NCBI GenBank assembly: GCA_028286885.1
Contig: JAQBQS010000016.1
Location: 70,464-134,463 of the forward strand
Source of the DNA: Patescibacteria group bacterium
GTDB taxonomy: Bacteria; Patescibacteriota; Minisyncoccia; Phycocordibacterales; UBA1006
Reading direction: 5' to 3'
Length of the DNA: 64,000 nt
A program made the translations under genes and the position numbers. The notes under the pieces are model-generated. The model was given only the letters and a program-made list of their open reading frames with translations, searched no databases and was not told the DNA's origin. Positions within the stretch are counted from its first letter, which is position 1, and each line of letters starts with the position of its first letter. Positions 20,518-64,000 of this stretch are shown piece after piece.

Positions 20518-20571
20518 AAACGAATTAGGTTAATCCAGGGATTCATATATAATTATAGATACTCTTTTTCT

Positions 20572-24586: not shown

Positions 24587-24587
24587 T

Positions 24588-24613: not shown

Positions 24614-24640
24614 TGAAAAAACAAGGTTTCAAGGTATACT
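24613..24640 (+). promoter_or_regulatory. sigma70-like promoter of fibre gene 2
   Basis: TTGAAA-16 nt-TATACT. Confidence 0.5.
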
Positions 24641-24663
24641 GTGCTGAGCAATTTCCTCAACGC

Positions 24664-28905: not shown

Positions 28906-28928
28906 AAATTCCCGAAAGGGAGTTTTTA
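28906..28928. terminator. short GNRA-loop hairpin terminator between convergent genes
   Basis: ttccc-gaaa-gggag-ttttt, with the complementary T-run on the other strand. Confidence 0.4.
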
Positions 28929-29372: not shown

Positions 29373-29449
29373 CGGGAATGGTTTTTGTTTGGAACAAAGA
29401 TACCATCTTTTTTATGGATTATCAAGACGATCGGAATATTTTCATTTAG

Positions 29450-30286
29450 TTACCCGAACCATTGCGATTCTTTCTCGCCTTCGCGCACAACGCGCTCGAT
29501 AATAAACTTCGCGTTTTCAAATCGCGCCTTCGTTATTTTTACGCGCTTTCCGTTTTGGAAAAAGTGGATTCCCGGCCACGGCTGATACGCCCGGTATTTT
29601 CTCCAAAGGATTTCCGGATCGTCATTCATTGGATCAATAAGGCCATCTTCTTTTTTCGTCTTGCCGCAGTGCGTCATGTTCGTCTCATCCTGCTCGACGA
29701 GAATTTGCTCGCCGCGTTCAAATGCGGGAATGGCATACTCGGCAAGAAGCCGTCCGCCGATTGCAATGAGTTTTGCGCGCAGGCTTGGCGTCGTGTCGTC
29801 GGCTTCGATGGGAATGCGTTCCTCCGCGACGATCGGTCCCGCGTCCAATTTGAAAACCATTTTTTGGATGGAAACGCCGGTTTCTAAATCTCCCGCCAAA
29901 ATCGCTGCCTCAACCGGTGTTGCGCCTCGCCATCTGGGCAAGAGGGAATAGTGGATGTTCAACGTGCCGAGATTCGGCAGGTCGATCAGTTTCTGCGGCA
30001 GGATTTTTCCGTAGGCAACGACGATGAACAAGCCTGCATTTTCAGCCGCAAGCTTTTCCATAACCTCATCCGTGATTTTTTCCGGCTGCAAAACAGGAAT
30101 ATTGTTTTCGTCCGCCCAAACTTTCGCCCTACTTGGCGTCATCGTGAAATGGCGTCCGACGGGCCGGTCAGGGCTTGTTATAATCAAACTTGGCATGTAT
30201 CCGTGCTCCTTCAAAATTTCCAAGGTTTCGGATGAGACGTCAGGCGTTCCGAAGAAGACGAAATTGAGTTTTTTGGATTCTTGCAT
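29450..30286 (-). CDS. fmt: methionyl-tRNA formyltransferase
   Basis: FFGTPD...NIHYSLLPRWRGATPVEAAI...; formyl-transferase fold with C-terminal domain. Confidence 0.85.
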   Translation of the reverse strand: MQESKKLNFVFFGTPDVSSETLEILKEHGYMPSLIITSPDRPVGRHFTMTPSRAKVWADENNIPVLQPEKITDEVMEKLAAENAGLFIVVAYGKILPQKLIDLPNLGTLNIHYSLLPRWRGATPVEAAILAGDLETGVSIQKMVFKLDAGPIVAEERIPIEADDTTPSLRAKLIAIGGRLLAEYAIPAFERGEQILVEQDETNMTHCGKTKKEDGLIDPMNDDPEILWRKYRAYQPWPGIHFFQNGKRVKITKARFENAKFIIERVVREGEKESQWFG

Positions 30287-51499: not shown

Positions 51500-52957
51500 A
51501 TGGAAGTTCTCGAAATTGCACTCGTCTCATTTCTCTTCGGTGTTGCAGGCTGGTTTCTCGGTATATGGTTTTTAATTGCGTGCGCGATTGGTTTGCTTGT
51601 CATCTTGGCATTTTTCAAACCTGCAAGAAAGCAAATTATTCTTTTCTTGCTCATAGCGACAGCATCCGCATCCGGAGGATTCTTCTGGTCGGGGCATTTT
51701 GTTTTCTCTCATGCTTCGCATATTCCTGAATCTGACTTCAACAAGAAGGAAACATTCCAAGCCGTCATATCCGACGATCCTGATCGCGGCATCGAGGGAA
51801 CGGCAATTGTTGCCGAATTAAAATCAGGAGATCATGTCCGCATCGGCCTGCCCGCCGGAACGGATGCTCTGTACGGCGACCGCATTGAATTCTCTGGAAC
51901 GCTGAAGCATCCGGAATCCTTCACAACCGACACCGGCCGCGAGTTCGATTATCCGACATACTTGCTTGTTCATGGAATTACGGCAACAACGAATATAAAA
52001 TCAATTACGATCGTCAGCCATCACAACAAGCCACTCTTCGTCGAATCGCTGTTTTCGATCAAAAAATATTTCGTGGATGCAATCAAGAAGCTCTTTCCAA
52101 GTCCGGAGTCAGGATTGTTCGCGGGAATCGTGATTGGCGAAAAGTCACTCCTTCCAAAATACAATCTGCAAGAATTTCAAATCGCGGGGCTGACTCACAT
52201 GATCGTGCTGTCGGGCTACAACATTACGATCGTCGCGCTGTTTGTTATGACGGCGCTTGCATGGCTCGGGGTCGGATACCGCGCGCGTCGCGTCGGCGCC
52301 ATCTTGGCCATTCCTGTTTTCATCGTGATGACGGGCATGGGCGCGAGCTCGGTGCGCGCGGGAATTATGGCTATTATTGTATTCGCCTTGCAGCTTGATA
52401 CGAGGCCTGCAAATTCGCTCCGCGTAATCTTGCTGACGCTCGCTACAATGGTATTTGTAAATCCTTATGCGCTCTTATATGACCCGTCGCTTCATTTGTC
52501 GTTTCTTGCGTTTATAGGTTTGGTGTATGTAACGCCGATTACGCAGCACTATTTCGAGAAATGGAATGTTCAAGAATACGGCGGCATGCGTGATTTGTTG
52601 ATAGAAACAATGTCAGTGCAATTTTTTGTGTTGCCTTATATTATCTGGATGAGCGGACGCGTTTCGGTGCTGACACTTGTTTCAAATTTGATTACTGTGC
52701 CGCTGACGCCGCTCGTCATGGGAACGGGATTTGCCGTCACGATCATCGGCATGATCGCAGGACCTCTCGGCGCCATTTTTGCAAAGCCTGTTTCGTGGGT
52801 GATGACATACATGCTGTCGGTCGCGCACATCGTCGCAAGCATGCATTTCGCAACGTTCGTCATTCCGCCGTTTGGAGGGTGGGTGATGGCCGGAATCTAT
52901 TTGACCATCTGCATAATCGTCTACATCTATTCAAGAATTCCAACCTCTCACGGTTGA
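51500..52957 (+). CDS. comEC: ComEC/Rec2-family DNA internalisation channel (core only, no metallo-beta-lactamase domain)
   Basis: N-terminal DUF4131-like segment; competence domain GLTHMIVLSGYNI...GMGASSVRAGIMAII; polytopic. Confidence 0.7.
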   Translation: MEVLEIALVSFLFGVAGWFLGIWFLIACAIGLLVILAFFKPARKQIILFLLIATASASGGFFWSGHFVFSHASHIPESDFNKKETFQAVISDDPDRGIEGTAIVAELKSGDHVRIGLPAGTDALYGDRIEFSGTLKHPESFTTDTGREFDYPTYLLVHGITATTNIKSITIVSHHNKPLFVESLFSIKKYFVDAIKKLFPSPESGLFAGIVIGEKSLLPKYNLQEFQIAGLTHMIVLSGYNITIVALFVMTALAWLGVGYRARRVGAILAIPVFIVMTGMGASSVRAGIMAIIVFALQLDTRPANSLRVILLTLATMVFVNPYALLYDPSLHLSFLAFIGLVYVTPITQHYFEKWNVQEYGGMRDLLIETMSVQFFVLPYIIWMSGRVSVLTLVSNLITVPLTPLVMGTGFAVTIIGMIAGPLGAIFAKPVSWVMTYMLSVAHIVASMHFATFVIPPFGGWVMAGIYLTICIIVYIYSRIPTSHG

Positions 52958-53584: not shown

Positions 53585-54409
53585 ATGAATCGAATCTACC
53601 AGAAAATTCAGACACGAGAAGGCCTTATGGCCCTTGGGTCAATTGCTCTCGTTTTTGCCATGTTTGCTTTGCTCGGACTTGGAGCATTCGCATTTGCGCG
53701 ATCTGCGCACAACGACTCGTCAGACGTAGGAACCATTACGGTTTCAGGATCAGGCGAGGTATCCGCTGCGCCGGACGTTGCAAACTTCACCGGAACTATT
53801 TCCGTCGATGCAAAGACCATGGCCGAAGCCGAGAAATCTGCAACAGCTCAGGAGTCAGCGCTTATTGCCAAGCTCTCTGATGCGGGAATCGCCAAAGATG
53901 ACATCAAGACGACATCGTACAATGCGTATCCAAAATATGAGAATCGCGCGATTGCGAAGCCTACGATCGAATGTTTCGCGGCACCGTGCCCGACGTATCC
54001 TGTTTCAAATTCGGTGATCGTTGGATACACGGTGTCTGAATCAATCTCAATCAAGGTCCGCGATCTGGACAAGGCCGGAGACATCGCGAAAGTTTTGACC
54101 GATGCGAATGTTTCATCGGTATCGGGTCCCGACTTTGCGATCGACAAGCCTGAACAAGTGCAGAACGAGGCGCGCGACAAGGCGATCCAGGATGCCAAGG
54201 AGCAGGCTGAACTTCTTGCCAAGCAGCTTGGCGTTCACCTGAAGGGAATCGTGGACTTTCAAGTTTCAAACGGCGGTCCTATCTACCCGATGGCCTACGC
54301 GACTAAGGCGATGGATTCTGCTGTCGGTGCGAGCGCTCCGGCGCCGAGCCTTCCTGCCGGACAGACAGACGTAAAAACGAATGTGACGATTACGTATAGG
54401 ATTAAGTAA
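53585..54409 (+). CDS. SIMPL-domain (DUF541, YggE-like) protein
   Basis: N-terminal TM, then ITVSGSGEVSAAPDVANFTGTISVDAKT...AKQLGVHLKGIVDF, characteristic of the SIMPL family. Confidence 0.55.
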   Translation: MNRIYQKIQTREGLMALGSIALVFAMFALLGLGAFAFARSAHNDSSDVGTITVSGSGEVSAAPDVANFTGTISVDAKTMAEAEKSATAQESALIAKLSDAGIAKDDIKTTSYNAYPKYENRAIAKPTIECFAAPCPTYPVSNSVIVGYTVSESISIKVRDLDKAGDIAKVLTDANVSSVSGPDFAIDKPEQVQNEARDKAIQDAKEQAELLAKQLGVHLKGIVDFQVSNGGPIYPMAYATKAMDSAVGASAPAPSLPAGQTDVKTNVTITYRIK

Positions 54410-55116: not shown

Positions 55117-55614
55117 ATGTTAGACATAAAAAACGAATTCACTGAATTAATTTCAGGAAGCGAGGAAATAATCATCGACGAGTGTAGGGGTTCTGATATA
55201 CTCGAGAATACGGAAGGCCTTTTTCACATCAACGAAGAAAGCTTCCGCAAGTTCAAACTGAAGCTTGCAGACGAAATCAGTCCGAACATTCCTACGGATA
55301 AAATATCTGCCGAAGTTTATCAAAGAAAAAAAGACGCAACGCTTCTGCAAATGTTCGGCTCGTTCGGTACGGATATCAGCACTCTTTGCATGAGCTGGAA
55401 ACAGATAAAAATATTCTGCAAGAAGCATCCAATGTGGCTCTGCGGCGGGGGATTCGGAACTCTTTTTATAACCAAAATCAATGGCGAGTATGCGGTTGCA
55501 TCGCTCAACCTCGTGCCTTCCATAGGGCTGCGCATGTCCGCTTTCCCGCTAGAAGAAAAGTATGTTTTTTCCTGGGGATTCCAGCATTTGGTTGTTCCTA
55601 GGTTGTCTTCTTGA
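55117..55614 (+). CDS. paralog 1 of a novel ~160 aa family (165 aa)
   Basis: Shares EEIIIDEC.GS at the N-terminus, LC..Q.QI..FCEK.P in the middle, LFLFK, and a C-terminal PRLSS/PKLSS with the next three genes. Confidence 0.7.
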   Translation: MLDIKNEFTELISGSEEIIIDECRGSDILENTEGLFHINEESFRKFKLKLADEISPNIPTDKISAEVYQRKKDATLLQMFGSFGTDISTLCMSWKQIKIFCKKHPMWLCGGGFGTLFITKINGEYAVASLNLVPSIGLRMSAFPLEEKYVFSWGFQHLVVPRLSS

Positions 55615-55648
55615 AAAACTAAATCTCGTCCGTAAGGCGAGATTATTC

Positions 55649-55677
55649 TTGACTAAAATTCTTTTAAGATGTATATA
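55649..55677 (+). promoter_or_regulatory. promoter of paralog 2
   Basis: TTGACT-17 nt-TATATA. Confidence 0.55.
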
Positions 55678-55716
55678 GATTTGGAAATTAACATTGCAAA
55701 AATTAAATAAACCAAG

Positions 55717-56199
55717 ATGACAGCTGCTGAAAATTTATTTGAACTCATTTCTCTGGATAAGGAGATCGTCATCGATGCATGCGACGGTTCGCAAACCTTG
55801 GCAGACGCCACAACCTTATTCGTCGCAACCGATTCGGTCGTCAAAAAATGCAGGTTCAACAAGATCAGGCCAACCGGACCGACTTCCGTTGACATTTACA
55901 AAATACCTGAGAAGGGTTCGCTTGCGGGCGCTTCGATCATAGATTATTTTGAAAATGATCTGGACAAATTGTGTCTGACCCAAAACCAGATAAGGAGCTT
56001 CTGTGAGAAGAGCGCCGCGAAGTGGATAAAGGGAGATAAATTCGAGTTTTTCTTCCTGTTTAAGATAGGCGGGCGAATACACGCCGCCCATGTTGCCACG
56101 TATACTTCTGGCCTAAGGGTCTTTGCCTACAGCATGGATTTCGTAATTGCCTGGTTCGACCGTGGCAACCGGGGTTTGGTAGTTCCCAAACTACTTTAA
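55717..56199 (+). CDS. paralog 2 (160 aa)
   Basis: EIVIDACDGSQ...LCLTQNQIRSFCEK...FFFLFK...VVPKLL. Confidence 0.7.
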   Translation: MTAAENLFELISLDKEIVIDACDGSQTLADATTLFVATDSVVKKCRFNKIRPTGPTSVDIYKIPEKGSLAGASIIDYFENDLDKLCLTQNQIRSFCEKSAAKWIKGDKFEFFFLFKIGGRIHAAHVATYTSGLRVFAYSMDFVIAWFDRGNRGLVVPKLL

Positions 56200-56208
56200 A
56201 ATCTATTC

Positions 56209-56238
56209 AAAGCCCTGATCCACAATCAGGGCTTTTTC
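56209..56238 (+). terminator. terminator of paralog 2
   Basis: agccctga-tccacaa-tcagggct followed by TTTTT. Confidence 0.7.
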
Positions 56239-56239
56239 A

Positions 56240-56268
56240 TTGACAAGAATGCTTTTGCGTGATATACA
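56240..56268 (+). promoter_or_regulatory. promoter of paralog 3
   Basis: TTGACA-17 nt-TATACA (TGaTATACA extended -10). Confidence 0.55.
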
Positions 56269-56309
56269 GTTATTGAAATAACAATTGTAAAATTTAAAAT
56301 ATAACCAAG

Positions 56310-56807
56310 ATGACAGACATAATAATCCGAGAGTCCATGGTACGTCTTTCAGAAGACAAGAAACTTATCATCGACGCATGTAGCGGAGAAAGGACTTTTG
56401 CAAGTTCGCCTACTCTTTTCGGGTCACATGGAGCGGGATGGCCATTTAATGAAATGGATTATCCAAGCGCTCCTACTCCTGAAATCGAAATCGAGCGATA
56501 TCAGATGATAAAGCCAGATTGTGTAACGGATATATTCAAATCTTTTAGTTCCGATCTGGAAAAGTTATGCCTCAATCAGGATCAAATAATCACATTCTGC
56601 GAAAAGCATCCCGAAGAAATTTCCAGAGAGTCTTCAATGACGACATTTTTCCTCTTTAAAAGAAAAGAGAACGTCATGGTCGGGGTAATGTTTGGGGATG
56701 GAGCCATGGATAACCGCCATTATGTTGTTGAGGGCCAGGATCTGCCTACTGGGGTACATAGTATTAAATATTTCCGCTCAATACTTATCCCTAAACTGTC
56801 TTCTTGA
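56310..56807 (+). CDS. paralog 3 (165 aa)
   Basis: KLIIDACSGER...LCLNQDQIITFCEKHP...FFLFK...IPKLSS. Confidence 0.7.
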   Translation: MTDIIIRESMVRLSEDKKLIIDACSGERTFASSPTLFGSHGAGWPFNEMDYPSAPTPEIEIERYQMIKPDCVTDIFKSFSSDLEKLCLNQDQIITFCEKHPEEISRESSMTTFFLFKRKENVMVGVMFGDGAMDNRHYVVEGQDLPTGVHSIKYFRSILIPKLSS

Positions 56808-56817
56808 AAAACATTCA

Positions 56818-56848
56818 AAGGCCCGATCTTATAGATCGGGCCTTTTTC
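56818..56848 (+). terminator. terminator of paralog 3
   Basis: gcccgatc-ttata-gatcgggc followed by TTTTT. Confidence 0.7.
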
Positions 56849-56877
56849 TTGACTAAAATATTTTTCTATTATATACA
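56849..56877 (+). promoter_or_regulatory. promoter of paralog 4
   Basis: TTGACT-17 nt-TATACA. Confidence 0.55.
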
Positions 56878-56917
56878 GATGGAGAAATAACTATTAAAAT
56901 ATAAATATATAACCAAG

Positions 56918-57415
56918 ATGGCAGCTGCAACAAACGAATTCCTGAAACTCATTTCAGGTGAACAAGAAATTATCATCGACGCATGTGATGGCACGAGAAG
57001 CATTGCGGACTCGGAAGAAATATTTACCAGGTTCCTAGATCCAAGTTTCAAAGATGCTTTTTTTGACAAAACCGGCAAAGAAACAAAAGAAATTTCATTG
57101 GAAATCAGCGAAATAACTAAAATGTCGACCTTACAGAAGATATTCCATTCGTTGGAGATTGATCCAGAAAACTTACGTCTTACTCAGCATCAGATAATCA
57201 ATTTTTGTGAGAAGTATCCTGATAAGTTTTTAATCAATGGAAAACCTACATTATTTCTTTTCAAAATGGGCAGTTCCGTGTGTGTAGCTAGTATCGCCCG
57301 GGATTCTTGTGGATTAAGGATTTATAGAAATGACCTTTATGGCGGCAATGTCGGTCCTGGACGTTATAATGTGATGCCTTCTTGGCGAATCGCAATTCCC
57401 AAACTGTCTTCTTGA
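56918..57415 (+). CDS. paralog 4 (165 aa)
   Basis: EIIIDACDGTR...LRLTQHQIINFCEKYP...LFLFK...IPKLSS. Confidence 0.7.
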   Translation: MAAATNEFLKLISGEQEIIIDACDGTRSIADSEEIFTRFLDPSFKDAFFDKTGKETKEISLEISEITKMSTLQKIFHSLEIDPENLRLTQHQIINFCEKYPDKFLINGKPTLFLFKMGSSVCVASIARDSCGLRIYRNDLYGGNVGPGRYNVMPSWRIAIPKLSS

Positions 57416-57423
57416 AACACATT

Positions 57424-57455
57424 CAAAGCCCTGATCACAGATCAGGGCTTTTTCT
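57424..57455 (+). terminator. terminator of paralog 4 (10 bp stem)
   Basis: agccctgatc-aca-gatcagggct followed by TTTTT; nearly identical to the paralog 2 terminator. Confidence 0.7.
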
Positions 57456-57489
57456 ATATAAATATGGATTTGTACTTGAATGTTCGGAA

Positions 57490-57529
57490 CCCTCTCCTTC
57501 CAGGAGAGGGTGGCTTCCGTCAGGAAGCC
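57490..57529 (+). other. two adjacent GC-rich hairpins without T-runs, upstream of the tuf promoter
   Basis: ccctctcc-ttcca-ggagaggg, then ggcttcc-gtca-ggaagcc. Confidence 0.35.
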
Positions 57530-57547
57530 GGGTGAGGTCTGGAATTC

Positions 57548-57576
57548 TTGACTTTATTTCCAATTTCGCGTAGGAT
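57548..57576 (+). promoter_or_regulatory. tuf promoter
   Basis: TTGACT-17 nt-TAGGAT; 118 nt leader. Confidence 0.5.
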
Positions 57577-57694
57577 ATGCGGGTTATTATTAAGTTAATC
57601 CGGGACACAGGTTATCGCCGGAACGATGCAACACTTGGCTGTTTTTTCAGCACGAGACGTCGTTTCGAGTAGTCTGTTCCCATCAATCAAACGT

Positions 57695-58897
57695 ATGGCA
57701 GCAGCTGAATTTGACCGATCAAAGCCACACGTAAACGTAGGAACCATTGGTCACGTCGACCATGGCAAGACTACGCTTACGGCGGCTATTTTGAGCGTCC
57801 TTAACCGAGAAGGCAACGGATATGGAGCCGTTACCAAGGGAATCAACGACATCGACAAGGCTCCCGAGGAAAAGGCACGAGGAATTACGATTTCATTGTC
57901 TCACTCTGAGTACTGGACACCGACGCGACACTACGCTCACATCGACGCCCCAGGACATGCCGACTACATCAAGAACATGATTACAGGTGCCGCTCAGATG
58001 GACGGTGCCGTACTCGTAGTAGCAGCAACAGACGGAGCGATGCCACAGACACGAGAGCACATTTTGCTCGCGCGACAGGTAAACGTTCCAAAGATGATTG
58101 TCTTCTTGAACAAGTGCGACATGGTTGATGACCCAGAAATGCTCGATCTCGTTGAGATGGAAATGCGAGAAATCTTGACCAAGAATGGTTACGACGGAGA
58201 CGCAACACCAATCATCCGAGGTTCAGGACTTAAGGCTTTGGAATCAGCTGACAACAGCGATCCTTACGCTCAGAAAGTCATGGAACTCGTTCGAGCATTG
58301 GACGAGTACATCCCAGTTCCAGAGCGAGAGCTCGACAAGCCATTCTTGATGCCAGTAGAGGACGTATTCTCGATCGAAGGACGAGGAACCGTCGTAACTG
58401 GAAAAATCGAGCAGGGAATCATCAAGGTAGGAGAGGAAATCGAAATTGTCGGTATCCACGACACCGTGAAGACAACGGTTACAGGAGTTGAAATGTTCAA
58501 CAAGTCGCTCCAGCAGGGACAGGCCGGTGACAACGCCGGAATTCTCCTCCGAGGAATCAAGAAGGAAGACGTTACCCGAGGGCAGGTTCTCTGCAAACCG
58601 GGATCAGTCAAGCCTCACACAGAGTTCGAGTGCGAGACCTACATCCTCAAGAAGGAGGAAGGAGGACGACACACGCCGTTCATCCAGGGTTACAAGCCTC
58701 AGTTCTACGTTCGAACAACGGACGTAACGGGAGAAGTAACGCTTCCAGAAGGAACAGCTATGGTTATGCCAGGCGACACGGTAACATTCAAGGTTAAACT
58801 CATGGCTCCAGTAGCTCTCGAGAACAACCAGCGATTCACCGTCCGAGAGGGAGGAAAGACAGTCGGTGCAGGTGTTGTTACCAAGATCATTGCTTAG
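57695..58897 (+). CDS. tuf: elongation factor Tu
   Basis: [32 protein letters not shown]...[22 protein letters not shown]...NKCD...; 400 aa. Confidence 0.93.
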
Positions 58898-58905
58898 TGA
58901 ATTGT

Positions 58906-58960
58906 CCGTCTTCCCGGGCTTGATTGTCTCAATCACCTACGCGGTGACCCGGGATCCAGG
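58906..58960 (+). other. second copy of the CGTCyTCCCGGGC...GACCCGGGATCCAGG element (tuf-rpsJ intergenic)
   Basis: ccgtcttcccgggc + hairpin tgattg-tctc-caatca + cctacgcggtGACCCGGGATCCAGG. Confidence 0.4.
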
Positions 58961-58981
58961 ACCAAACACTCTCCATTAATT

Positions 58982-59311
58982 ATGGCAACAAAAACACAGG
59001 CTCCAGCTGGCGGAATCCGTTTGCGCGTCCGCGCATACGAGAGCAAAATTCTCGATGCGTCGATCAAGCAGATCATCGACATCGCCAAGAAGAACGAGGC
59101 TGAAGTCCGCGGTCCGGTCCCGTTGCCAAACGAGATCAAGAAGTACACGGTGAACCGTTCGACGTTCGTCCACAAGGACGCGCGCGAGCAGTTCGAAATC
59201 CGCGTGCACAAGCGGCTCATCGACATCGTCAACCCGAATCCGAAATTGATCGAAGCATTGGGAACAATGAACCTTCCGTCAGGAGTCGAGGTCGACATGA
59301 AGATGATGTAA
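58982..59311 (+). CDS. rpsJ: 30S ribosomal protein S10
   Basis: IRLRVRAYESKILDASIKQIIDIAKKNEAEVRGPVPLP...STFVHKDAREQFEIRVHKRLIDI. Confidence 0.92.
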   Translation: MATKTQAPAGGIRLRVRAYESKILDASIKQIIDIAKKNEAEVRGPVPLPNEIKKYTVNRSTFVHKDAREQFEIRVHKRLIDIVNPNPKLIEALGTMNLPSGVEVDMKMM

Positions 59312-59368
59312 TTTATCAAGTAGCTCACGTTGGCGGTAAGAGATTACAACTAGACGGCTCCTTGAATT

Positions 59369-59394
59369 GCGAACGGTTTGTGAAAACCGTTCGC
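59369..59394 (+). other. 11 bp perfect-stem GNRA hairpin in the rpsJ-rplC spacer
   Basis: gcgaacggttt-gtga-aaaccgttcgc, with no T-run. Confidence 0.5.
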
Positions 59395-59430
59395 TCCTCA
59401 AACAGCCGAGCCAACCACTGAACAAGACAT

Positions 59431-60051
59431 ATGAAATTCATTCTCGGTGAGAAAATCACCATGACGCAGTTTTTCGATTCGAAAGGCCGCGCGCAGGCTG
59501 CGACGATCATCAAGGCTACGCCTTCGGTCGTGACGCAGGTCAAATCGACGGACAAAGACGGCTATTCGTCAGTCCAGCTCGGATTCGGAACGCGAAAGGA
59601 AAAAAATATCGCCAAGGCCCAGAAGGGAGCTTGGGGAGAAGGGCGATTTGCGACAACTCGAGAATTTCGAGTGTCAGCAGACGAGCTTGCAAACTACACG
59701 GTAGGTGCATCGCTCGACGCATCAGTGTTTGCCATTGACGACACGATCCGAGTCACGGGCCTTTCAAAAGGCAAGGGATTCCAGGGTGTGGTCAAGCGAC
59801 ACAACTTCGCAGGAGGTCCACGCTCACACGGTCAGAAGCACTCTGAGCGAGAAGCCGGATCAATCGGCGGATCAGGAGGACGAGCCGGAGGACGCGTAGC
59901 GAAAGGTATCCGAATGGCAGGACGAATGGGATCTGACCGAATCACGGTTCGCAATCTAAAAGTTCTCGCGGTCGACACAGCAACCAATACAATGGTGGTC
60001 AAAGGCGCGGTTCCGGGACGAAACGGAACACTCCTCGAAATCATCGGCTAA
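59431..60051 (+). CDS. rplC: 50S ribosomal protein L3
   Basis: ITMTQFFDSKGRAQAATIIKA...GKGFQGVVKRHNFAGGPRSHGQ. Confidence 0.92.
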   Translation: MKFILGEKITMTQFFDSKGRAQAATIIKATPSVVTQVKSTDKDGYSSVQLGFGTRKEKNIAKAQKGAWGEGRFATTREFRVSADELANYTVGASLDASVFAIDDTIRVTGLSKGKGFQGVVKRHNFAGGPRSHGQKHSEREAGSIGGSGGRAGGRVAKGIRMAGRMGSDRITVRNLKVLAVDTATNTMVVKGAVPGRNGTLLEIIG

Positions 60052-60055
60052 TTCT

Positions 60056-60835
60056 ATGGAAAACATTTCAGCAAAAATGCATAACATTTCAGGTAAAGAA
60101 GCAGGATCAGTATCCTTGCCATCTTCTATCTGGAACCTTCCTTGGAACGCCGACCTGGTTCACCAGGTTGTTACAGGAATGCAGTCAAACGCGCGCGCTT
60201 CAACAGCGAATGCTAAAGGACGAGGTGAAGTATCCGGAGGAGGCAAGAAGCCATGGCGCCAGAAGGGAACAGGACGAGCCCGACACGGTTCGAACCGCTC
60301 GCCAATCTGGATCGGTGGAGGTACAACTCACGGACCACTCTCTGAGAAAAATTACGACAAGAAAATCAACAAGAAGATGAAGGCGAAAGCCCTCTACGTT
60401 GCTCTCTCACAGAAATTGCGGGACAATCAGGTTATCTTCGTAGATACACTTTCGTTTGATTCAATCAAGACAAAGACAGCGCAAAACGCACTTGACTCAT
60501 TTGCGAAAATCGCAGGATTTGAAACATTGAACACCAAGAAGCACAACAACATCTTTGTTGTCGTTCCCGGCAAAACAGAGGCTGTCGCAAAATCGTTCCG
60601 AAACATTTCTCACGCAACGCTTGAGGATGTTCGAAACTTGAACCCGATGGATGTTATGAATTATCGATACATCATCGTTGCCAACCCCGAGGAAGCATCT
60701 GCAACCTTGGCTGGACGCATGAACAAAACGGTAACGTCAGCTCCAAAGGCTGCCAAGCCTGCAAAGGAAAAAGCACCTGCAAAGGCAAAAGCTCCGAAGA
60801 AGGTCGCAGCCAAAAAGACAGCTAAGAAAGCTTAA
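60056..60835 (+). CDS. rplD: 50S ribosomal protein L4 with Lys/Ala-rich C-terminal extension
   Basis: KPWRQKGTGRARHGSNRSPIWIGGGTTHGP; tail AAKPAKEKAPAKAKAPKKVAAKKTAKKA. Confidence 0.9.
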   Translation: MENISAKMHNISGKEAGSVSLPSSIWNLPWNADLVHQVVTGMQSNARASTANAKGRGEVSGGGKKPWRQKGTGRARHGSNRSPIWIGGGTTHGPLSEKNYDKKINKKMKAKALYVALSQKLRDNQVIFVDTLSFDSIKTKTAQNALDSFAKIAGFETLNTKKHNNIFVVVPGKTEAVAKSFRNISHATLEDVRNLNPMDVMNYRYIIVANPEEASATLAGRMNKTVTSAPKAAKPAKEKAPAKAKAPKKVAAKKTAKKA

Positions 60836-60840
60836 ATTAT

Positions 60841-61164
60841 ATGGCAACAAAAACGATCAAGAAGACAGATGACAAGGCGGCAACGCCTGTCGTAAAGTCA
60901 ACAAAAATCCTCGGTCCGCGCGTAACTGAAAAGGCTGCGTACGCGACAGAGAAAAATGTTTACGTATTCAACGTAACCCTCGACGCTAACAAGATCGAAA
61001 TCAAGAAAGCGATCAAGGATGCGTACAAGGTTATGCCGATTGCAGTCAACATCGTCATCAGCAAGCCACGGGCAAAAATGTTCCGAGGCAAGCCAGGTGT
61101 AAAGAAAGGCTTCAAGAAGGCGTATGTCACCTTGAAAAAGGGAGATACGATCGACCTGAACTAA
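60841..61164 (+). CDS. rplW: 50S ribosomal protein L23
   Basis: KSTKILGPRVTEKAAYATEKNVYVFNVTLDANKIEIKKAIKDAYKV. Confidence 0.9.
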   Translation: MATKTIKKTDDKAATPVVKSTKILGPRVTEKAAYATEKNVYVFNVTLDANKIEIKKAIKDAYKVMPIAVNIVISKPRAKMFRGKPGVKKGFKKAYVTLKKGDTIDLN

Positions 61165-61171
61165 CTGCAAA

Positions 61172-61196
61172 AAACTTCCGTTCGGGAGTTTTTTGT
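61172..61196 (+). terminator. terminator directly after rplW (ends the S10-L3-L4-L23 unit before L2)
   Basis: acttcc-gttc-gggagt followed by TTTTT. Confidence 0.55.
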
Positions 61197-61209
61197 TTGG
61201 GAAAATTGG

Positions 61210-61240
61210 AAAATAAAAAAGGCGAACCGAAGTTCGCCTT
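61210..61240 (-). terminator. terminator for minus-strand gene 61266-61751
   Basis: aggcgaac-cgaa-gttcgcct with a minus-strand T-run. Confidence 0.6.
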
Positions 61241-61265
61241 GAGGAAACACAAGACACATTATTTT

Positions 61266-61751
61266 TTACGGATTGGTAAAGCCCGAGAGCGTTATGTGCT
61301 GCCCGGTTTCTGCCGGCGTACACGTTATGGGGGTGCTAAATCCGGTACCGACGAAGATTTTCACGCTGTAGGTCGTGGAACACGAAGTAAGGCAGAACGT
61401 CGCTTTTCCGTTCGCGTCAGTCCCGGTCGTTTGGATGACGCCGCCGTCGGCTGCCAGCAGTTTGACCGTTTTGTTGGGGATCGGAACAGACTTGCTGTCC
61501 AGCCACCAGAAGGGGTAGTCTAAGCAAGCAGGCGGTGCTACCGGTTCGGCAGTTGCCGGAGCCTCTACTACAGCTACAGGCGTTTCGGGCACATTTGCCG
61601 CGATCGACATGACTGGAGCTATTGCTTCCGTCAGCACAGGATCGCTCGGTGTTTCGGGTTTCGGTCCGGCTGCGCTTGCTGTCATGGTGACCATGGCGAA
61701 GAGGATCAGGAATAGGGCTGTCTTGGACCGTTGAGTTGTTGTTTTTCTCAT
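61266..61751 (-). CDS. secreted protein with CnaB/carboxypeptidase-regulatory-like beta-sandwich
   Basis: Signal peptide; VKLLAADGGVIQTTGTDANGKATF motif. Confidence 0.45.
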   Translation of the reverse strand: MRKTTTQRSKTALFLILFAMVTMTASAAGPKPETPSDPVLTEAIAPVMSIAANVPETPVAVVEAPATAEPVAPPACLDYPFWWLDSKSVPIPNKTVKLLAADGGVIQTTGTDANGKATFCLTSCSTTYSVKIFVGTGFSTPITCTPAETGQHITLSGFTNP

Positions 61752-61872
61752 GTTGGTTTGTTTTGGTTTATGAATTTGTTAAAAGGACAGAAGAAGATCC
61801 TATCAAATTTATCTTTTTGAGTCAAGAATCCGCCGGTTGCCGTTTTCTTGGCGTGTGCGATACTAAGTACCT

Positions 61873-62466
61873 ATGATTGAAAATATAACGCCTAGGAAGG
61901 AATCATCGCCGGATATTATGAGAAAAGCCAAAGATGCTTTTGTTATTGCGGCCCTTGTCGTCTGCACGGCGCTTCTTGCGTCATGTACGGGCAGCAAGGA
62001 ACGCGCATCGGCAGAGGATCTCAAGAATCACATCGAGAATCTCGACGTTGAAAAAGTTCCGATGGAGGATCTCAGAAAAATCGAGGACAGACTCAACTTT
62101 GATCACGGTCAGACAGTTCTTTCGCAAGAAGGAGACGTTATGCTTGCGCACGAAGATCAATTGACCACCATCACAGAAGATTCAAGCAATGTTATTGTTG
62201 ATGTAACGTTGAATTTGAGAGGTCCTGATAACAGCTTTGTTACGCGCGTAACGCATGTCGAGGTAGACAAGGCAACAGGCATCGCAACGCTTTTCAGTGA
62301 CGGCGAGGTCGGCCAGGATGTTCTCAAGAGCCAGAAGTTCCATCAGGTAATGGTTGTGAACAAGGATGGCGAGATCGTCAAAGATGATAATTACACTCCC
62401 GGCGCTGCTGCCGATTATGTAAAAACCGTTGCGAATCAGGCCTCAATTCCAACAGTAAATCTCTAA
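61873..62466 (+). CDS. lipoprotein (probable start at MRKAKD, 61918)
   Basis: AALVVCTALLASC lipobox. Confidence 0.5.
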   Translation: MIENITPRKESSPDIMRKAKDAFVIAALVVCTALLASCTGSKERASAEDLKNHIENLDVEKVPMEDLRKIEDRLNFDHGQTVLSQEGDVMLAHEDQLTTITEDSSNVIVDVTLNLRGPDNSFVTRVTHVEVDKATGIATLFSDGEVGQDVLKSQKFHQVMVVNKDGEIVKDDNYTPGAAADYVKTVANQASIPTVNL

Positions 62467-62493
62467 GACCCCGCAAGGGGTTTTCTTGATAAA

Positions 62494-62522
62494 ATAAAAA
62501 ATCTCACAATGAGATTTTTTGT
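62494..62522. terminator. bidirectional AT-flanked hairpin
   Basis: aaaaaatctca-caa-tgagatttttt. Confidence 0.5.
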
Positions 62523-62530
62523 TGAGCTTC

Positions 62531-62824
62531 TTAGGCAACGCACTCCTGTAACGCGAGAAGATTATCCGTCAGTTTTCCATCAGAATAAGTTCGAACATAA
62601 GGATTTCCAGCGGAGCTTACCCCTGTAGTGAGATATGCCGTATTACCAAATTTGTCCTTTACATATGCCGATCCTCCATTTTTCAAAAAAGTATACATTT
62701 CAAGGCGGGTCGTATAGTAATTTCCGAATTCGTTTCTATATCCGAGATTTGAAATTGCCGTATGCGGTTCATAGTGATCTCCGTTCCCCTTAGTAATGCA
62801 TGTAACGTGGCGCGTGTTTGCCAT
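62531..62824 (-). CDS. DUF3892-family small protein (97 aa)
   Basis: MANTRHVTCITK...DHYEPHTAISNLG...YVRTYSDGKLTDNLLALQEC. Confidence 0.5.
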   Translation of the reverse strand: MANTRHVTCITKGNGDHYEPHTAISNLGYRNEFGNYYTTRLEMYTFLKNGGSAYVKDKFGNTAYLTTGVSSAGNPYVRTYSDGKLTDNLLALQECVA

Positions 62825-63360
62825 AAGTTTAAAAGTCGAACTTTCCCCAAGAACTTAATTTCCGGCTTTGTTTTCCTTAGAGGGTGTAGTATTCTAAGGG
62901 TGTCGCAAACTCCTCCAGAAATGGCGGTTTTTGTTTTGGCTCAACCTGAATTGTTGACAGGTTTTAATTGTCCTAAGAGTCCTGTCCCTCTAAAGACCTT
63001 TTAATTATACCATTTTTTCAAGGTATTTAGAATTTTTTCCTTGACAAATTTGAATTTCATAACAAAAAAATTCCCCTGTAAAACAGGGGAAAATAGGAGC
63101 CTTATTTTTAATGATTTTTCAAGGCATATCCACAGAGATTTTTTTGCAAGAGGGTTTATTAGAGTTTATGCACAGCCTTTTTTTGAAACAATAAAGAAAT
63201 ACCTTTTCTAAAGGCATTCTTGACCAAACGCCCAAAATCTGATAAGGTATCCCAGTCTATCTGGATTGTATTTTCATACGCCCTAAGACGTTTAAACAGC
63301 AAGGCACTGTTTTATTATTTAATTCTCTGCGAGAAAGCCTTATTCGCACTGCAACATTCA

Positions 63361-64000
63361 TGAAAACATACAAGCCAACAAGTAAGTCGCGCCGAATGAT
63401 GTCGGTCGTGACGTACAAGGGCGTTCTTACAACGAACGAACCTTACAAGCCTCTCACCTTCGGACGGTCAAAACAGGCCGGACGAAACAACCGAGGAATC
63501 GTAACCGTCCCTCACCAGGGAGGAGGAAACAAAAACCTCTACCGAATGGTGGACTTCAAATTCGACAAGAAAAACATTCCTGCAAAGGTTGAAACAGTCG
63601 AGTATGATCCAAACCGAACAGCGTTCATCGCACTCGTCGTTTACAATGACGGAGAAAGGCGTTACATTCTCGTTCCTCAGAACGTGAAGGTCGGCGACGT
63701 GATCATCACGGCCGCTGACGCGCCGATGAAGCCCGGAAACCGACTTCCTTTGCGAAGCATTCCGGTTGGAACATTCGTCTACAACATCGAACTCAAGCCT
63801 GACGGAGGAGCAAAGCTCGTTCGTTCGGCAGGAACGTTCGCCCAGGTTGCGGCGCATGACAACGGACGCGTACAGCTCCGCCTTCCTTCGACGGAGGTTC
63901 GAACAGTTATCGACACATGCTACGCATCAGTCGGATCAGTTTCAAACCCTGAATACCAGCTCGCAAACCGCGGCAAGGCCGGAAAGTCACGATGGTTGGG
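63361..64000 (+). CDS. rplB: 50S ribosomal protein L2, N-terminal 213 aa; the gene continues past the window end
   Basis: Direct translation: MKTYKPTSKSRRMM...GRNNRGIVTVPHQGGGNKNLYRMVDFKF...IALVVYNDGERRYILVPQNVKVGDVI. Missing from the ORF track because it is truncated. Confidence 0.9.

What the first reader, a model, noticed from the sequence alone, without database searches (positions are those of the whole stretch)
61165..63360. The conserved S10 ribosomal-protein operon is broken between L23 and L2 by a 2.2 kb insertion carrying three accessory genes
tuf-rpsJ-rplC-rplD-rplW is followed by a terminator. Then come three accessory genes:
- an opposite-strand secreted CnaB-like protein
- a lipoprotein
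- an opposite-strand DUF3892 protein.

A 535 bp AT-rich non-coding stretch follows, before rplB resumes at 63361. The L23-L2 junction is normally contiguous (usually a few bp), and this gene order is close to universal.

The non-coding stretch has a promoter-like TTGACAaatt, a minus-oriented terminator hairpin (ttcccctgt-aaa-acaggggaa) and short direct repeats (ttagagggtg / tctaagggtg at ~62868-62900). Together the insert looks like an integration remnant.

L2 and the genes downstream then need their own promoter; TTGACC-17-TAAGGT at ~63228-63256 is a candidate.
Basis: partly seen in the sequence, partly recalled or inferred. Interest (0 to 1): 0.7.

Follow-up and report, generated by a model that had tools for sequence, protein, structure and literature searches.

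The report
Ribosomal operon split hosting variable cargo
In this small-genome bacterium (Patescibacteria) and its close relatives, the normally unbroken S10 ribosomal-protein operon is cut on both sides of the L2 gene; L2 has its own promoter, terminator and a previously undescribed conserved RNA leader, and the gap in front of it holds accessory or defence genes that differ from genome to genome.

Summary
rplW ends at 61164 and rplB starts at 63360 (not 63361). The 2195 nt between them hold three separately terminated genes and 535 nt of AT-rich DNA.

It is not a one-off insertion. Most relatives whose L2 is at least 80% identical carry the same cut: an intrinsic terminator after rplW and a conserved extended -10 promoter before rplB (window 63220-63248).

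The cargo between terminator and promoter differs in every genome: restriction-modification, HicAB, PemK, the defence candidate PDC-S13, unknown genes, or nothing. Two strains 97.6% identical across rplB differ in junction state.

rplB also has its own terminator and is not followed by rpsS, so it is a stand-alone gene.

Its 5' leader carries a new two-hairpin RNA motif (P1 63294-63312, P2 63328-63348). The loops AGGCA and GAAAGCCUUAU are invariant and complementary. All 12 stem pairs covary across 16 sequences, and Rfam has no match. The motif also occurs in relatives with an uncut L23-L2 spacer.

I infer, without a direct test, that it is an L2-sensing autoregulatory leader. I also infer that the insulated gap is a recombination-fed hotspot.

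The parts
60841..61164 (+). rplW (L23), last gene of the upstream transcription unit
   Evidence: Pfam Ribosomal_L23, 85.6 bits.
61168..61200 (+). Intrinsic terminator after rplW (CAAAAAACTTCCG-TT-CGGGAGTTTTTTG plus T-run)
   Evidence: Inverted repeat I5. A hairpin plus T-run occupies the same position in L001, L002, L003, L081, L082, L083, L170 and L173, with different, compensating stem sequences.
61219..61240 (-). Terminator of the Ig-like gene
   Evidence: Terminator scan: 9-bp stem plus T-run, 26 nt downstream of the gene's stop codon.
61266..61751 (-). Cargo gene 1: secreted protein with a C-terminal beta-sandwich/Ig-like region (161 aa)
   Evidence: Only Pfam hits below the cut-offs: SdrD_B, CarboxypepD_reg, Big_1. 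No PDB sequence match. No homologue in 160 related loci.
61752..61917 (.). Divergent promoter region between cargo genes 1 and 2
   Evidence: Promoter-like sites at 61825-61797 (-) and 61848-61877 (+). These are consensus matches only.
61918..62466 (+). Cargo gene 2: lipoprotein (182 aa from the start used by NCBI and Logan; ORF opens at 61873)
   Evidence: Lipobox LLASC is visible in the sequence. No Pfam, NCBIfam or PADLOC family. Orphan: one homologue at 38% identity.
62468..62523 (.). Two terminator hairpins between the convergent genes 2 and 3 (CCCC-GCAA-GGGG plus T-run; AATAAAAAATCTCA/TGAGATTTTTTGTT)
   Evidence: Sequence; inverted repeat I3.
62531..62824 (-). Cargo gene 3: DUF3892 protein (97 aa), a family linked to defence
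   Evidence: Pfam DUF3892, 32.6 bits, above the cut-off of 22.3. The three homologues looked up, among the four closest (60-65% identity), each sit next to a type II restriction-modification gene pair. The literature links the family to defence.
62825..63219 (.). AT-rich spacer; conserved with one relative (L168); function unexplained. Contains a terminator-like plus-strand element at about 62905-62939, a TTGACA at 63041 and a minus-strand hairpin at 63071-63091
   Evidence: 69.9% identity over 322 nt to L168 (E = 5e-22). Spacer identity is 66.6%, against 46.7% at fourfold-degenerate sites of rplB in the same genome pair. Alignment.
63220..63248 (+). rplB promoter: -35 TTGACC (63220-63225), 17-nt spacer, TG (63240-63241), -10 TAAGGT (63243-63248)
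   Evidence: Both hexamers and the TGn align in window, L001, L168, L170 (type A) and in L002, L003, L004, L081, L082, L083, L173 (TTGACA-16/17-TGC-TATAGT). Missed by the simple scan because the -10 matches only 3 of 6 positions.
63294..63312 (+). Leader hairpin P1: AAACAG / CAAGGCA loop (63300-63306) / CTGTTT
   Evidence: RNAalifold. Covariation counts. Reproduced by single-sequence folding.
63328..63348 (+). Leader hairpin P2: TGCGA / GAAAGCCTTAT loop (63333-63343) / TCGCA; ends 11 nt before the ATG
   Evidence: The 11-mer occurs 11 times in 2.33 Mb searched on both strands, each time 24-79 nt upstream of rplB. Model R1 scores 40-82 bits on true sites and at most 21 bits elsewhere.
63360..64000 (+). 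rplB (L2), cut by the window end; 281 aa in the identical Logan contig, followed by its own terminator and then non-ribosomal genes
   Evidence: Pfam Ribosomal_L2_N and Ribosomal_L2_C. Logan contig L161/L162 is 100% identical over 59167-64000. Terminator AATCCC-GCAA-GGGATTTTTTG after the stop codon.

Best explanation
**Shown here**
- In a sub-lineage of Paceibacteria-like Patescibacteria (genomes whose L2 is at least about 80% identical to the window's), the S10 operon has been re-cut into separate transcription units.
- rplW ends in an intrinsic terminator.
- rplB is a monocistronic unit. It has its own extended -10 sigma-70-type promoter, a leader of about 100 nt and its own terminator. rpsS is not adjacent.
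- The leader carries a conserved two-hairpin RNA motif. Its stems covary, and its loops (AGGCA and GAAAGCCUUAU) are invariant and mutually complementary.
- The same motif also sits in the short, uncut L23-L2 spacer of more distant relatives.
- The stretch between the rplW terminator and the rplB promoter holds different genes in every genome, or none. The window's three genes (a secreted Ig-like protein, an orphan lipoprotein and a DUF3892 protein) are this genome's version. Each has its own terminator.

**Inferred**
1. The motif is an autoregulatory leader that binds free L2. In this genome, which lacks Shine-Dalgarno sequences, a protein-stabilised P2 hairpin or P1-P2 complex 11 nt from the AUG would block 30S loading.
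2. Independent control of L2 removed the need for co-transcription and translational coupling, and so allowed the operon to be cut.
3. The gap is transcriptionally insulated by the terminator and the promoter, so DNA can be gained and lost there without polar effects. The flanking, highly conserved r-protein genes act as homology arms for recombination with DNA taken up from relatives (ComEC is encoded at 51500-52957). This makes the site a hotspot enriched in self-stabilising modules (restriction-modification, toxin-antitoxin, defence candidates).
For: **The break is lineage-specific**
- The L23-L2 gap is 2195 nt in the window, 2730 in L001, 1638 in L003, 1574 in L083, 778 in L002, 534 in L081 and 204 in L082, against a median of 12-14 nt in 145 loci.
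- More members were found through L2 homologues: L170-172 (about 2 kb) and L173-176 (about 175 nt).

**Terminator and promoter**
- The terminator after rplW is conserved in position, with compensating stem changes.
- The promoter hexamers and the TGn are conserved.
- A terminator follows rplB in every member examined, and rpsS is 0.2 to more than 6 kb away or absent.

**Cargo differs in each genome**
- L001 carries a C5 methylase (278 bits), an HNH type II restriction enzyme and a HicB-like gene.
- L002 carries PemK.
- L003 carries PDC-S13 (306 bits) and a membrane protein.
- L004 carries HicA, a HicB-like gene and an unknown protein.
- L083 carries three unknown proteins.
- L170 carries an unknown protein and an AAA_18 protein.
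- L082 and L173 carry nothing.
- An all-against-all comparison found only the HicB-like gene shared, between L001 and L004.

**Junction state is polymorphic**
- L167 and L168 encode the identical L2 protein. They are 97.6% identical in DNA from the 11-mer loop onward.
- L167 has a 74-nt uncut spacer, whereas L168 has the window-type promoter and leader.

**The RNA motif**
- RNAalifold finds both hairpins.
- With 16 distinct sequences, 90.2% of cells pair, against 65.7% when shuffled (0 of 500 shuffles reach it) and 29-42% when the partners are slid. All 12 stem pairs show changes on both sides.
- A covariance model built from 11 sequences found further members that were not used to build it, at 40-59 bits: L167, L168, L170, L173 and L178 among the distinct ones.
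- Viral contigs preselected to contain both loops score at most 21 bits.
- There is no Rfam match.
- G-U pairs fit the plus (mRNA) strand.
- The motif is present in the uncut spacers of L005, L006, L084, L178 and L167.

**Supporting context**
- L2 is the only gene in the transcription unit, the same basis ('Only') that Eckert and Weinberg use to assign a ligand.
- The genome lacks Shine-Dalgarno sequences.
- ComEC is encoded in the window.
Against: - No binding, expression or transcript data exist. The promoter, the terminators and the ligand are all inferred from sequence.
- The distance from P2 to the AUG varies from 24 to 79 nt, and extra hairpins intervene in some relatives. Simple occlusion of the start site cannot be the whole mechanism.
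- The leader folds no more stably than shuffled sequence (z = +0.99). The evidence rests on covariation.
- The loop-loop pairing is invariant and therefore untestable by covariation.
- Comparison with the L2 site of E. coli 23S rRNA gave only short, chance-level matches.
- L177 (L2 78% identical) has a 62-nt spacer without the motif. The motif has therefore been lost, or is not strictly ancestral.
- L167's uncut state inside the split clade means the order of events (leader first, cut later) is not proven.
- Recombination-driven turnover is inferred from one strain pair and from the diversity of cargo; no recombination tract was mapped on the rplW side.
- Part of the 'non-coding' stretch (62853-63149) is conserved with L168 and is not explained by this model.
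Confidence: 0.68

Rival explanations
1. One reading: a single recent integration of a mobile element into an otherwise intact S10 operon. The AT-rich DNA and short repeats would be the scar, and a fortuitous promoter would rescue rplB.
For: - The three genes, and the insert's DNA, are absent from the 160 loci compared; the later-fetched L168 shares the AT-rich spacer.
- A terminator-like sequence at 62923-62939 resembles the 3' half of the rplW terminator (repeat D5, 82% over 17 nt). This could be read as a duplicated target.
- One DUF3892 homologue (L164) lies beside an integrase.
Against: - Terminator, promoter and leader are conserved in about a dozen relatives with different cargo or none. 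The cut therefore predates this cargo.
- There is no integrase, transposase or tRNA, and no convincing flanking repeat.
- The GC content of the three genes (0.56, 0.47, 0.42) lies within the window's 0.49 +/- 0.04 spread.
- Each cargo gene has its own terminator, which does not look like one element.
Confidence: 0.08
2. The two-hairpin motif is a real RNA structure but not an L2 sensor. It could be an RNase processing or stability element, a binding site for another protein (for example L23 or L4 in the uncut operons), a target for a small RNA, or a riboswitch-like or thermosensing element.
For: - The spacing to the AUG is variable and extra hairpins intervene.
- No rRNA mimicry was demonstrated.
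- In uncut operons the motif sits between rplW and rplB, where a processing site would make sense.
- L2 has never been shown experimentally to be a leader ligand; the only proposed L2 leader is rated '?'.
Against: - In the split genomes L2 is the only gene on the transcript.
- In about 2.5 Mb of related loci searched with the model, the motif is found only in front of rplB.
- The invariant 5-nt and 11-nt loops look like a specific macromolecular recognition surface.
Confidence: 0.3
3. An assembly or binning artefact: the insert joins fragments from different organisms.
For: The window comes from a metagenome-assembled genome.
Against: - A Logan assembly of run SRR13312974, made with different software, is 100% identical across both junctions.
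- The flanks carry the clade-typical terminator and leader.
- The spacer is homologous to L168, from a different sample.
Confidence: 0.02
4. The three genes are functionally tied to the ribosome or to L2 and were recruited into the operon for co-expression.
For: Physical position only.
Against: - Two of the three genes are on the opposite strand.
- Each has its own terminator, and they lie behind the rplW terminator.
- The content differs in every relative.
- The predicted products are secreted or lipid-anchored, or linked to defence.
Confidence: 0.02

Closest known systems
Ribosomal-protein autoregulatory leaders; the nearest is the candidate L2 leader of Alphaproteobacteria (Eckert and Weinberg 2020, PMC7247131)
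   Same: - Both are conserved, covarying RNA structures directly upstream of rplB.
- In both, the ligand is assigned from the genes on the transcript.
- In both, L2 is the proposed sensor.
   Different: - No Rfam 15 family matches here at E up to 1. It is therefore not homologous to that family.
- The alphaproteobacterial motif precedes rplB-rpsS-rplV-rpsC and is rated '?'. Here rplB is alone on the transcript.
- The architecture here is two hairpins with complementary invariant loops.
- The lineage is Patescibacteria, which that paper's main text does not mention.
E. coli S10 leader and L4 autoregulation (established knowledge; distribution reviewed in PMC3616713)
   Same: Both are autogenous control of S10-operon genes through a structured mRNA leader.
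   Different: - That leader lies upstream of rpsJ, binds L4 and controls all 11 genes by attenuation and translational coupling.
- Here the element lies inside the operon, immediately before rplB, and the operon is physically cut.
[quoted passage not shown] 2019, PMC6735719)
   Same: In both, small numbers of unrelated genes invade a junction. Once concatenation is lost, further separation follows.
   Different: - Those events lie mainly between operons, in Gammaproteobacteria and Bacilli, and are fixed in lineages.
- Here the cuts are inside the S10 operon (L23|L2 and L2|S19), and the content turns over between close relatives.
Integration hotspots and defence islets flanked by core genes (general concept; recalled from memory, not read here)
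   Same: Both show variable accessory content, rich in restriction-modification, toxin-antitoxin and defence-candidate genes, between two conserved core genes.
   Different: - There is no integrase, tRNA or att site.
- The flanks are two genes of one ancestral operon.
- The site is bounded by a conserved terminator and promoter.

Membership tests
Ribosomal-protein leader (cis-regulatory RNA, as a functional kind) | A conserved RNA secondary structure in the 5' UTR or intergenic region directly upstream of an r-protein gene | tested here: met
   P1 and P2 lie 24-79 nt upstream of the rplB ATG in 16 distinct sequences, and nowhere else in about 2.5 Mb of related loci searched with the model.
Ribosomal-protein leader (cis-regulatory RNA, as a functional kind) | Base pairing supported by compensatory substitutions | tested here: met
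   All 12 stem pairs change on both sides. 90.2% of cells pair, against 65.7% shuffled and 29-42% slid. RNAalifold agrees independently.
Ribosomal-protein leader (cis-regulatory RNA, as a functional kind) | Binds an r-protein encoded on the same transcript and represses its synthesis | not testable with these tools
   This needs binding and reporter assays. The only support is that L2 is the sole gene in the transcription unit.
Ribosomal-protein leader (cis-regulatory RNA, as a functional kind) | Resemblance to the protein's rRNA binding site (common but not universal) | tested here: inconclusive
   Only matches of 5-6 nt to E. coli 23S rRNA were found (UAGGCA at 1671; GAAAG in the apex of helix 66, as I recall its position from memory). 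Their number is what chance predicts. No 23S sequence from this clade was available.
L2-Alphaproteobacteria leader and all other Rfam 15 families | A match to the family's covariance model | tested here: not met
   No hit on the leader at E up to 1. No hit at gathering threshold in the whole window. None in L003 9700-11800.
Integrative mobile element or genomic island | An integrase or transposase, flanking direct repeats (att), often a tRNA target | tested here: not met
   No tRNA in the window. No recombinase domain in the three proteins. Only weak, chance-level repeats.
Core-gene-flanked hotspot of variable accessory genes | The same pair of conserved flanking genes with different gene content across related genomes | tested here: met
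   About twelve clade genomes give nine different contents or none.
Core-gene-flanked hotspot of variable accessory genes | Turnover between closely related strains | tested here: met
   L167 and L168 have identical L2 protein and 97.6% DNA identity downstream of the motif loop, but different junction alleles.
Intrinsic (Rho-independent) terminator after rplW | A GC-containing hairpin followed directly by a U-tract, just after the stop codon | tested here: met
   Window 61168-61200 (pair I5). The same holds in eight relatives with compensating stems. Activity was not tested.
Sigma-70-type extended -10 promoter before rplB | -35 and TGn-10 hexamers at 16-17 nt spacing, conserved in relatives; a transcript start downstream | tested here: inconclusive
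   The sequence features are conserved in 11 genomes. The window's -10 (TAAGGT) matches only 3 of 6 positions and was not picked up by the scan. The transcript start cannot be tested here.
DUF3892 (PF13031) | Score above Pfam's gathering cut-off | tested here: met
   32.6 bits against a cut-off of 22.3.
   SdrD_B scores 24.9 bits against a cut-off of 29.7. Several unrelated beta-sandwich families score similarly. There is no PDB match.

The most novel reading that the evidence does not exclude
A previously undescribed RNA leader that senses L2 (two hairpins with complementary invariant loops) arose inside the S10 operon of a Paceibacteria lineage. It gave rplB autonomous control. That autonomy allowed the most conserved operon of bacteria to be physically cut on both sides of rplB. 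The insulated gaps then became recombination-fed landing pads for defence and accessory genes. The same logic (a second conserved leader before rpsS; L2|S19 and S10|L3 cuts in a large share of Patescibacteria) would make fragmentation of r-protein operons, with leader-based control replacing coupling, a general feature of these reduced genomes.
Probability: 0.35. Interest if true: 0.78.

Novelty: new variant of a known kind. Interest (0 to 1): 0.62.

Why it matters
**Operon order.** The order S10-L3-L4-L23-L2-S19 is treated as nearly invariant and underlies the 'syntenic ribosomal block' used to place uncultured bacteria. This case shows that order being broken repeatedly in one radiation, at particular junctions, and suggests how the cell could tolerate it: each piece carries its own promoter and its own RNA leader.

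**A testable RNA.** The finding offers a well-supported new RNA motif. If it binds L2, it would be the first solid case of L2 as an autoregulator, and a rare regulatory RNA known from Patescibacteria.

**Practical uses.** The junctions are places to look for new defence genes in organisms that cannot be cultured. They also serve as strain-level markers.

Tried and rejected
- **Rfam.** An E-value scan of 57000-64000, a gathering-threshold scan of the whole window and an E-value scan of L003 gave nothing relevant. The sub-threshold SpF22 hit (28.5 bits against 55) on 63064-63216 (-) was dismissed as an effect of terminator plus AT-richness.
- **tRNA or tmRNA as an integration target.** None found.
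- **att-like repeats around the insert.** Only short, weak pairs.
- **GC and GC3 as a sign of foreign origin.** Not discriminating.
- **DNA or translated similarity of the insert to 160 loci or the rest of the window.** None. The later-fetched L168 shares the spacer.
- **A conserved element upstream of DUF3892 homologues.** None.
- **23S rRNA mimicry, using E. coli rrlB.** Chance-level.
- **Thermodynamic stability of the leader.** Not better than shuffled sequence.
- **PDB sequence search for the DUF3892 and Ig-like proteins.** Only a spurious 20-residue match to designed ankyrin-repeat proteins for the first, and nothing for the second.
- **PADLOC and NCBIfam on the three window proteins.** Nothing significant: no PADLOC hit, and only one far-below-cut-off NCBIfam match (17 bits against a cut-off of 100) for the Ig-like protein.
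- **Scan of viral contigs for the two loops.** Only chance matches; used as a negative control.
- **Literature.** I found no paper describing S10-operon fragmentation in CPR/Patescibacteria. Absence from this library is not proof.
- **MAFFT alignment of the 16 leaders.** It misaligned the 3' arm of P1. It was replaced by ungapped segments anchored on the two loops.
- **Not attempted.** Structure prediction of the cargo proteins; a phylogeny to count how many times the cut arose.


Full report
**1. What is in the window**

- tuf, rpsJ (58982-59311), rplC (59431-60051), rplD (60056-60835) and rplW (60841-61164) run on the plus strand.
- A hairpin with a T-run follows at 61168-61200 (pair I5).
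- Three ORFs come next:
  - 61266-61751 (-): 161 aa, signal-peptide-like N-terminus, and only sub-threshold hits to several beta-sandwich families.
  - 61918-62466 (+): lipobox LLASC, no family. It is an orphan with one homologue at 38% identity among 5.8 billion proteins.
  - 62531-62824 (-): DUF3892, above Pfam's cut-off.
- Each ORF has its own terminator hairpin.
- 62825-63359 has no credible ORF and is 35% GC.
- rplB starts at 63360, one base earlier than stated, and runs off the window.
- The window belongs to an NCBI metagenome-assembled genome labelled 'Patescibacteria group bacterium' (locus tags JWM20_993 and 994).
- A Logan assembly of run SRR13312974 is 100% identical over 59167-64000 and extends 5.8 kb further. 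The junctions are therefore not an artefact of one assembler.

**2. Is the break unusual?**

I fetched 160 loci around L2 relatives from one-genome-per-species and metagenome collections. I then measured every junction of the operon by tblastn.

| Junction | Loci judged | Gap over 300 nt |
|---|---|---|
| L23\|L2 | 145 | 6 |
| L3\|L4 | 140 | 2 |
| L4\|L23 | 138 | 2 |
| S19\|L22 | 111 | 0 |
| L22\|S3 | 106 | 0 |
| L2\|S19 | 116 | 71 (52 over 1 kb) |
| S10\|L3 | 112 | 35 |

- The L23-L2 spacer has a median of 12-14 nt. Five of the six loci above 300 nt are the window's nearest relatives (L2 at least 80% identical).
- The non-Patescibacteria loci in the set (Acidobacteriota, SAR86, Clostridiales) have L2-S19 gaps of 150 nt or less.
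- The S10 operon is therefore not inviolate in this radiation. The L23|L2 cut is still rare and marks one clade.

**3. The cut is older than the cargo**

- In window, L001, L002, L003, L081, L082, L083, L170 and L173 a hairpin with a T-run follows the rplW stop codon. Its stem sequence changes in a compensating way.
- About 100-170 nt upstream of rplB, all of these genomes, plus L004 and L168, have aligned promoter elements.
  - Type A: TTGACC-17-TG-n-TAAGGT in window (63220-63248), L001 and L168; L170 has the variant TTGCCA-17-TG-n-TAATGT.
  - Type B: TTGACA-16/17-TGC-TATAGT in the others.
- L082 and L173-176 have terminator and promoter back to back, with nothing between them.
- Every member examined also has a terminator right after rplB. 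In the window's organism it reads AATCCC-GCAA-GGGATTTTTTG.
- rpsS does not follow rplB.
  - In the window's organism the next genes are a 333-aa unknown protein, two small lipoproteins, a glutathionylspermidine-synthase-like protein and a 584-aa secreted protein.
  - In relatives, rpsS lies 0.2 to 6.6 kb away.
- rplB is therefore a stand-alone gene.

**4. The cargo turns over**

Content between the rplW terminator and the rplB promoter:

| Genome | Content |
|---|---|
| window | Ig-like protein, lipoprotein, DUF3892 |
| L001 | HicB-like gene, C5 DNA methylase, HNH type II restriction enzyme |
| L002 | PemK/MazF toxin |
| L003 | membrane protein, PDC-S13 defence candidate |
| L004 | HicB-like gene, HicA, unknown protein (rplW is not on this contig) |
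| L081 | 534 nt without an ORF |
| L083 | three unknown proteins |
| L170-172 | unknown protein, AAA_18-like protein |
| L082, L173-176 | nothing |

- An all-against-all comparison found only the HicB-like gene shared, between L001 and L004.
- The window's DUF3892 fits the pattern. The three homologues I looked up, among the four closest (60-65% identical), each sit beside a type II restriction-modification gene pair, one of them with an integrase. The family has also been linked to defence in the literature.
- There is no integrase, tRNA or convincing att repeat in the window, and composition is unremarkable.
- L167 and L168 encode the identical L2 protein and are 97.6% identical in DNA from the motif's 11-nt loop onward.
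  - Upstream of that point they are unrelated.
  - L167 has a 74-nt uncut L23-L2 spacer. L168 has the window-type promoter and leader.
  - The junction state has therefore been exchanged between near-identical genomes, with a breakpoint in conserved sequence.
- ComEC is encoded in the window (51500-52957).
- From this I infer, but have not shown, turnover by homologous recombination that uses the conserved r-protein genes as arms.

**5. A new RNA motif in front of rplB**

- Aligning the rplB upstream regions exposed two invariant blocks, AGGCA and GAAAGCCTTAT. Each is flanked by short inverted repeats whose sequence changes between genomes.
- In the window the elements are:
  - P1 = 63294-63312 (AAACAG / CAAGGCA / CTGTTT).
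  - P2 = 63328-63348 (TGCGA / GAAAGCCTTAT / TCGCA), ending 11 nt before the ATG.
- RNAalifold predicts both hairpins, with 9 of 11 pairs compensated.
- With 11 sequences, 90.9% of cells pair, against 70% in shuffles and 29-45% with slid partners.
- A covariance model built from those 11 sequences found nothing else in the window or in the other 149 of the first 160 loci. The next best score was 18 bits, against 63-82 bits for true sites.
- L2 homologues then led to new contigs. The model found the motif, at 40-59 bits and always directly before rplB, in L167, L168, L169, L170-172, L173-176 and L178/179. None of these was used to build it, and they carry new stem variants.
- With 16 distinct sequences in an ungapped, loop-anchored alignment, all 12 stem pairs change on both sides. 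90.2% of cells pair, against 65.7% in shuffles (0 of 500 reach it) and 29-42% when slid.
- Viral contigs chosen because they contain both loops at the right spacing score at most 21 bits.
- The two loops can pair with each other (AGGC with GCCU). Because they never vary, this cannot be tested by covariation.
- No Rfam 15 family matches.
- The leader is not unusually stable (z = +0.99).

**6. What the motif most likely does**

- The motif also occurs in L005, L006, L084 and L178/179 (L2 65-74% identical) and in L167. In those genomes it fills a 74-180-nt L23-L2 spacer, and I recognised no terminator or promoter by eye in the ones printed. It can therefore work inside a polycistronic mRNA, and it probably predates the cut.
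- In the split genomes the only gene on the transcript is rplB. This is the same reasoning ('Only') that Eckert and Weinberg use to assign ligands. They list one uncertain L2 leader, in Alphaproteobacteria, and note that L2 was not previously known as a leader ligand.
- The genome has no Shine-Dalgarno sequences, so initiation should depend on an open 5' region. A protein-stabilised hairpin 11 nt from the AUG would interfere with that.
- I therefore favour L2 autoregulation, at about 0.5 probability.
- Arguments against:
  - The P2-AUG distance varies from 24 to 79 nt, with extra hairpins in type B leaders.
  - The check for rRNA mimicry was inconclusive.
  - L177 (78% identical) lacks the motif.

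**7. Unexplained remainder**

- The AT-rich stretch is not simply decayed DNA.
  - 62853-63149 aligns with L168 203-517 at 69.9% identity (E = 5e-22).
  - The whole spacer is 66.6% identical, whereas fourfold-degenerate sites of rplB in the same pair are only 46.7% identical.
  - Frame-breaking indels argue against a coding function.
- It contains:
  - a palindrome, CCTTAGA-N11-TCTAAGG (62876-62900), which keeps its symmetry through a paired change in L168;
  - a plus-strand terminator-like element (about 62905-62939) that resembles the rplW terminator;
  - the TTGACA at 63041, conserved in L168;
  - the minus-strand hairpin at 63071-63091, whose pairing is not conserved in L168.
- In both genomes a different minus-strand gene starts at the spacer's left edge.
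- The possibilities are constraint (an operator, a second promoter or a small RNA) or recent exchange. Two sequences cannot decide between them.

**8. Comparison with what is known, and verdict**

- Functionally, this looks like a ribosomal-protein leader combined with a core-gene-flanked accessory hotspot.
- It is not a member of any Rfam family.
- It differs from the insertions described for Gammaproteobacteria and Bacilli. Those occur mostly between operons; here the cuts are inside the S10 operon and the contents turn over.
- I found no paper on this in CPR/Patescibacteria.
- Verdict:
  - 'Recent integration remnant' is replaced by 'lineage-level cut with strain-specific cargo'.
  - The main new result is the rplB leader motif and the stand-alone status of rplB.

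Noticed in passing
window 55117-57415 (+): Four tandem paralogous ORFs of 160-165 aa with no Pfam family lie between the SIMPL gene (53585-54409) and tuf. In relatives L167, L170 and L173, SIMPL is followed directly by tuf. This looks like a second strain-specific insertion, at an operon boundary.
   Followed up: partly
L003 11585-11779; L004 5318-5512; L002 13823-14017; L167 9067-9261; L173 8853-9047 (upstream of rpsS; outside the window): A second conserved promoter and a leader of about 150 nt precede rpsS in clade relatives. The core reads TCTCACCCnAGACAG ... TTTGGACCGTTACTTCCTAAA ... CGTGCACTG. A flanking stem changes in a compensating way (CCCCG/CGGGG, TCGAG/CTCGA, TCTCG/CGAGA). There is no Rfam hit. 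It is probably another undescribed r-protein leader.
   Followed up: partly
Loci L001-L160 (junction survey): L2|S19 is separated by more than 300 nt in 71 of 116 Patescibacteria-dominated loci (52 by more than 1 kb), and S10|L3 in 35 of 112. L3|L4, L4|L23, S19|L22 and L22|S3 are almost never broken. In L167, L170 and L173 the spc part ends after L5, and S12-S7 follow an rpoA-like or other gene. I found no paper describing this.
   Followed up: partly
window 62531-62824 (-); L164 6001-6285; L165 1553-1852; L166 848-1135: The three DUF3892 homologues looked up, among the four closest (60-65% identity), each sit beside a type II restriction-modification gene pair: HpaII + C5 methylase + integrase; HinfI + N6_N4 methylase; EcoRI + D12 methylase. 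The family is predicted in the literature to take part in defence.
   Followed up: partly
window 62853-63149: The AT-rich 'non-coding' spacer is 69.9% identical to L168 203-517. This is well above the 46.7% identity at fourfold-degenerate sites of rplB in the same genome pair. It includes a palindrome, CCTTAGA-N11-TCTAAGG (62876-62900), that keeps its symmetry through a paired change in L168. Its function is unknown.
   Followed up: partly
window 63071-63091 (-): A strong minus-strand terminator-like hairpin has no gene to terminate. A sub-threshold Rfam hit to SpF22 sRNA covers 63064-63216 (-) at 28.5 bits, against a cut-off of 55. The pairing is not conserved in L168.
   Followed up: partly
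window, upstream of 22 gene starts: No Shine-Dalgarno-like sequence precedes the ribosomal, RNA-polymerase or other genes examined. Several starts are preceded by A-rich sequence ending in ...ccaag ATG.
   Followed up: no
window 19799-30286: rpoB (20723-24586) and rpoC (24613-28905) are not flanked by rplJ-rplL or rpsL-rpsG-fusA. A cyclophilin gene precedes them, and a 148-aa ORF with no family and a formyltransferase gene, both on the opposite strand, follow. HisRS, RecJ, ComEC and SIMPL lie between rpoC and tuf. The whole translation supercluster is dispersed in this genome.
   Followed up: partly
window 60056-60835: L4 carries a C-terminal extension of about 50 residues, rich in Lys, Ala and Pro (...SAPKAAKPAKEKAPAKAKAPKKVAAKKTAKKA), beyond the Pfam L4 domain (residues 19-209).
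   Followed up: no
L162 689-2443; L002 7450-9051 (-); L004 3411-5270 (-); L082 2253-3467 (-): A large secreted protein (533-619 aa where the ORF is complete; 404 aa in L082) with no Pfam family, in the three scanned (L162, L002, L004), lies on the opposite strand downstream of rplB in several clade members. It may be a conserved neighbour on that side. Homology among these proteins was judged by eye only.
   Followed up: no
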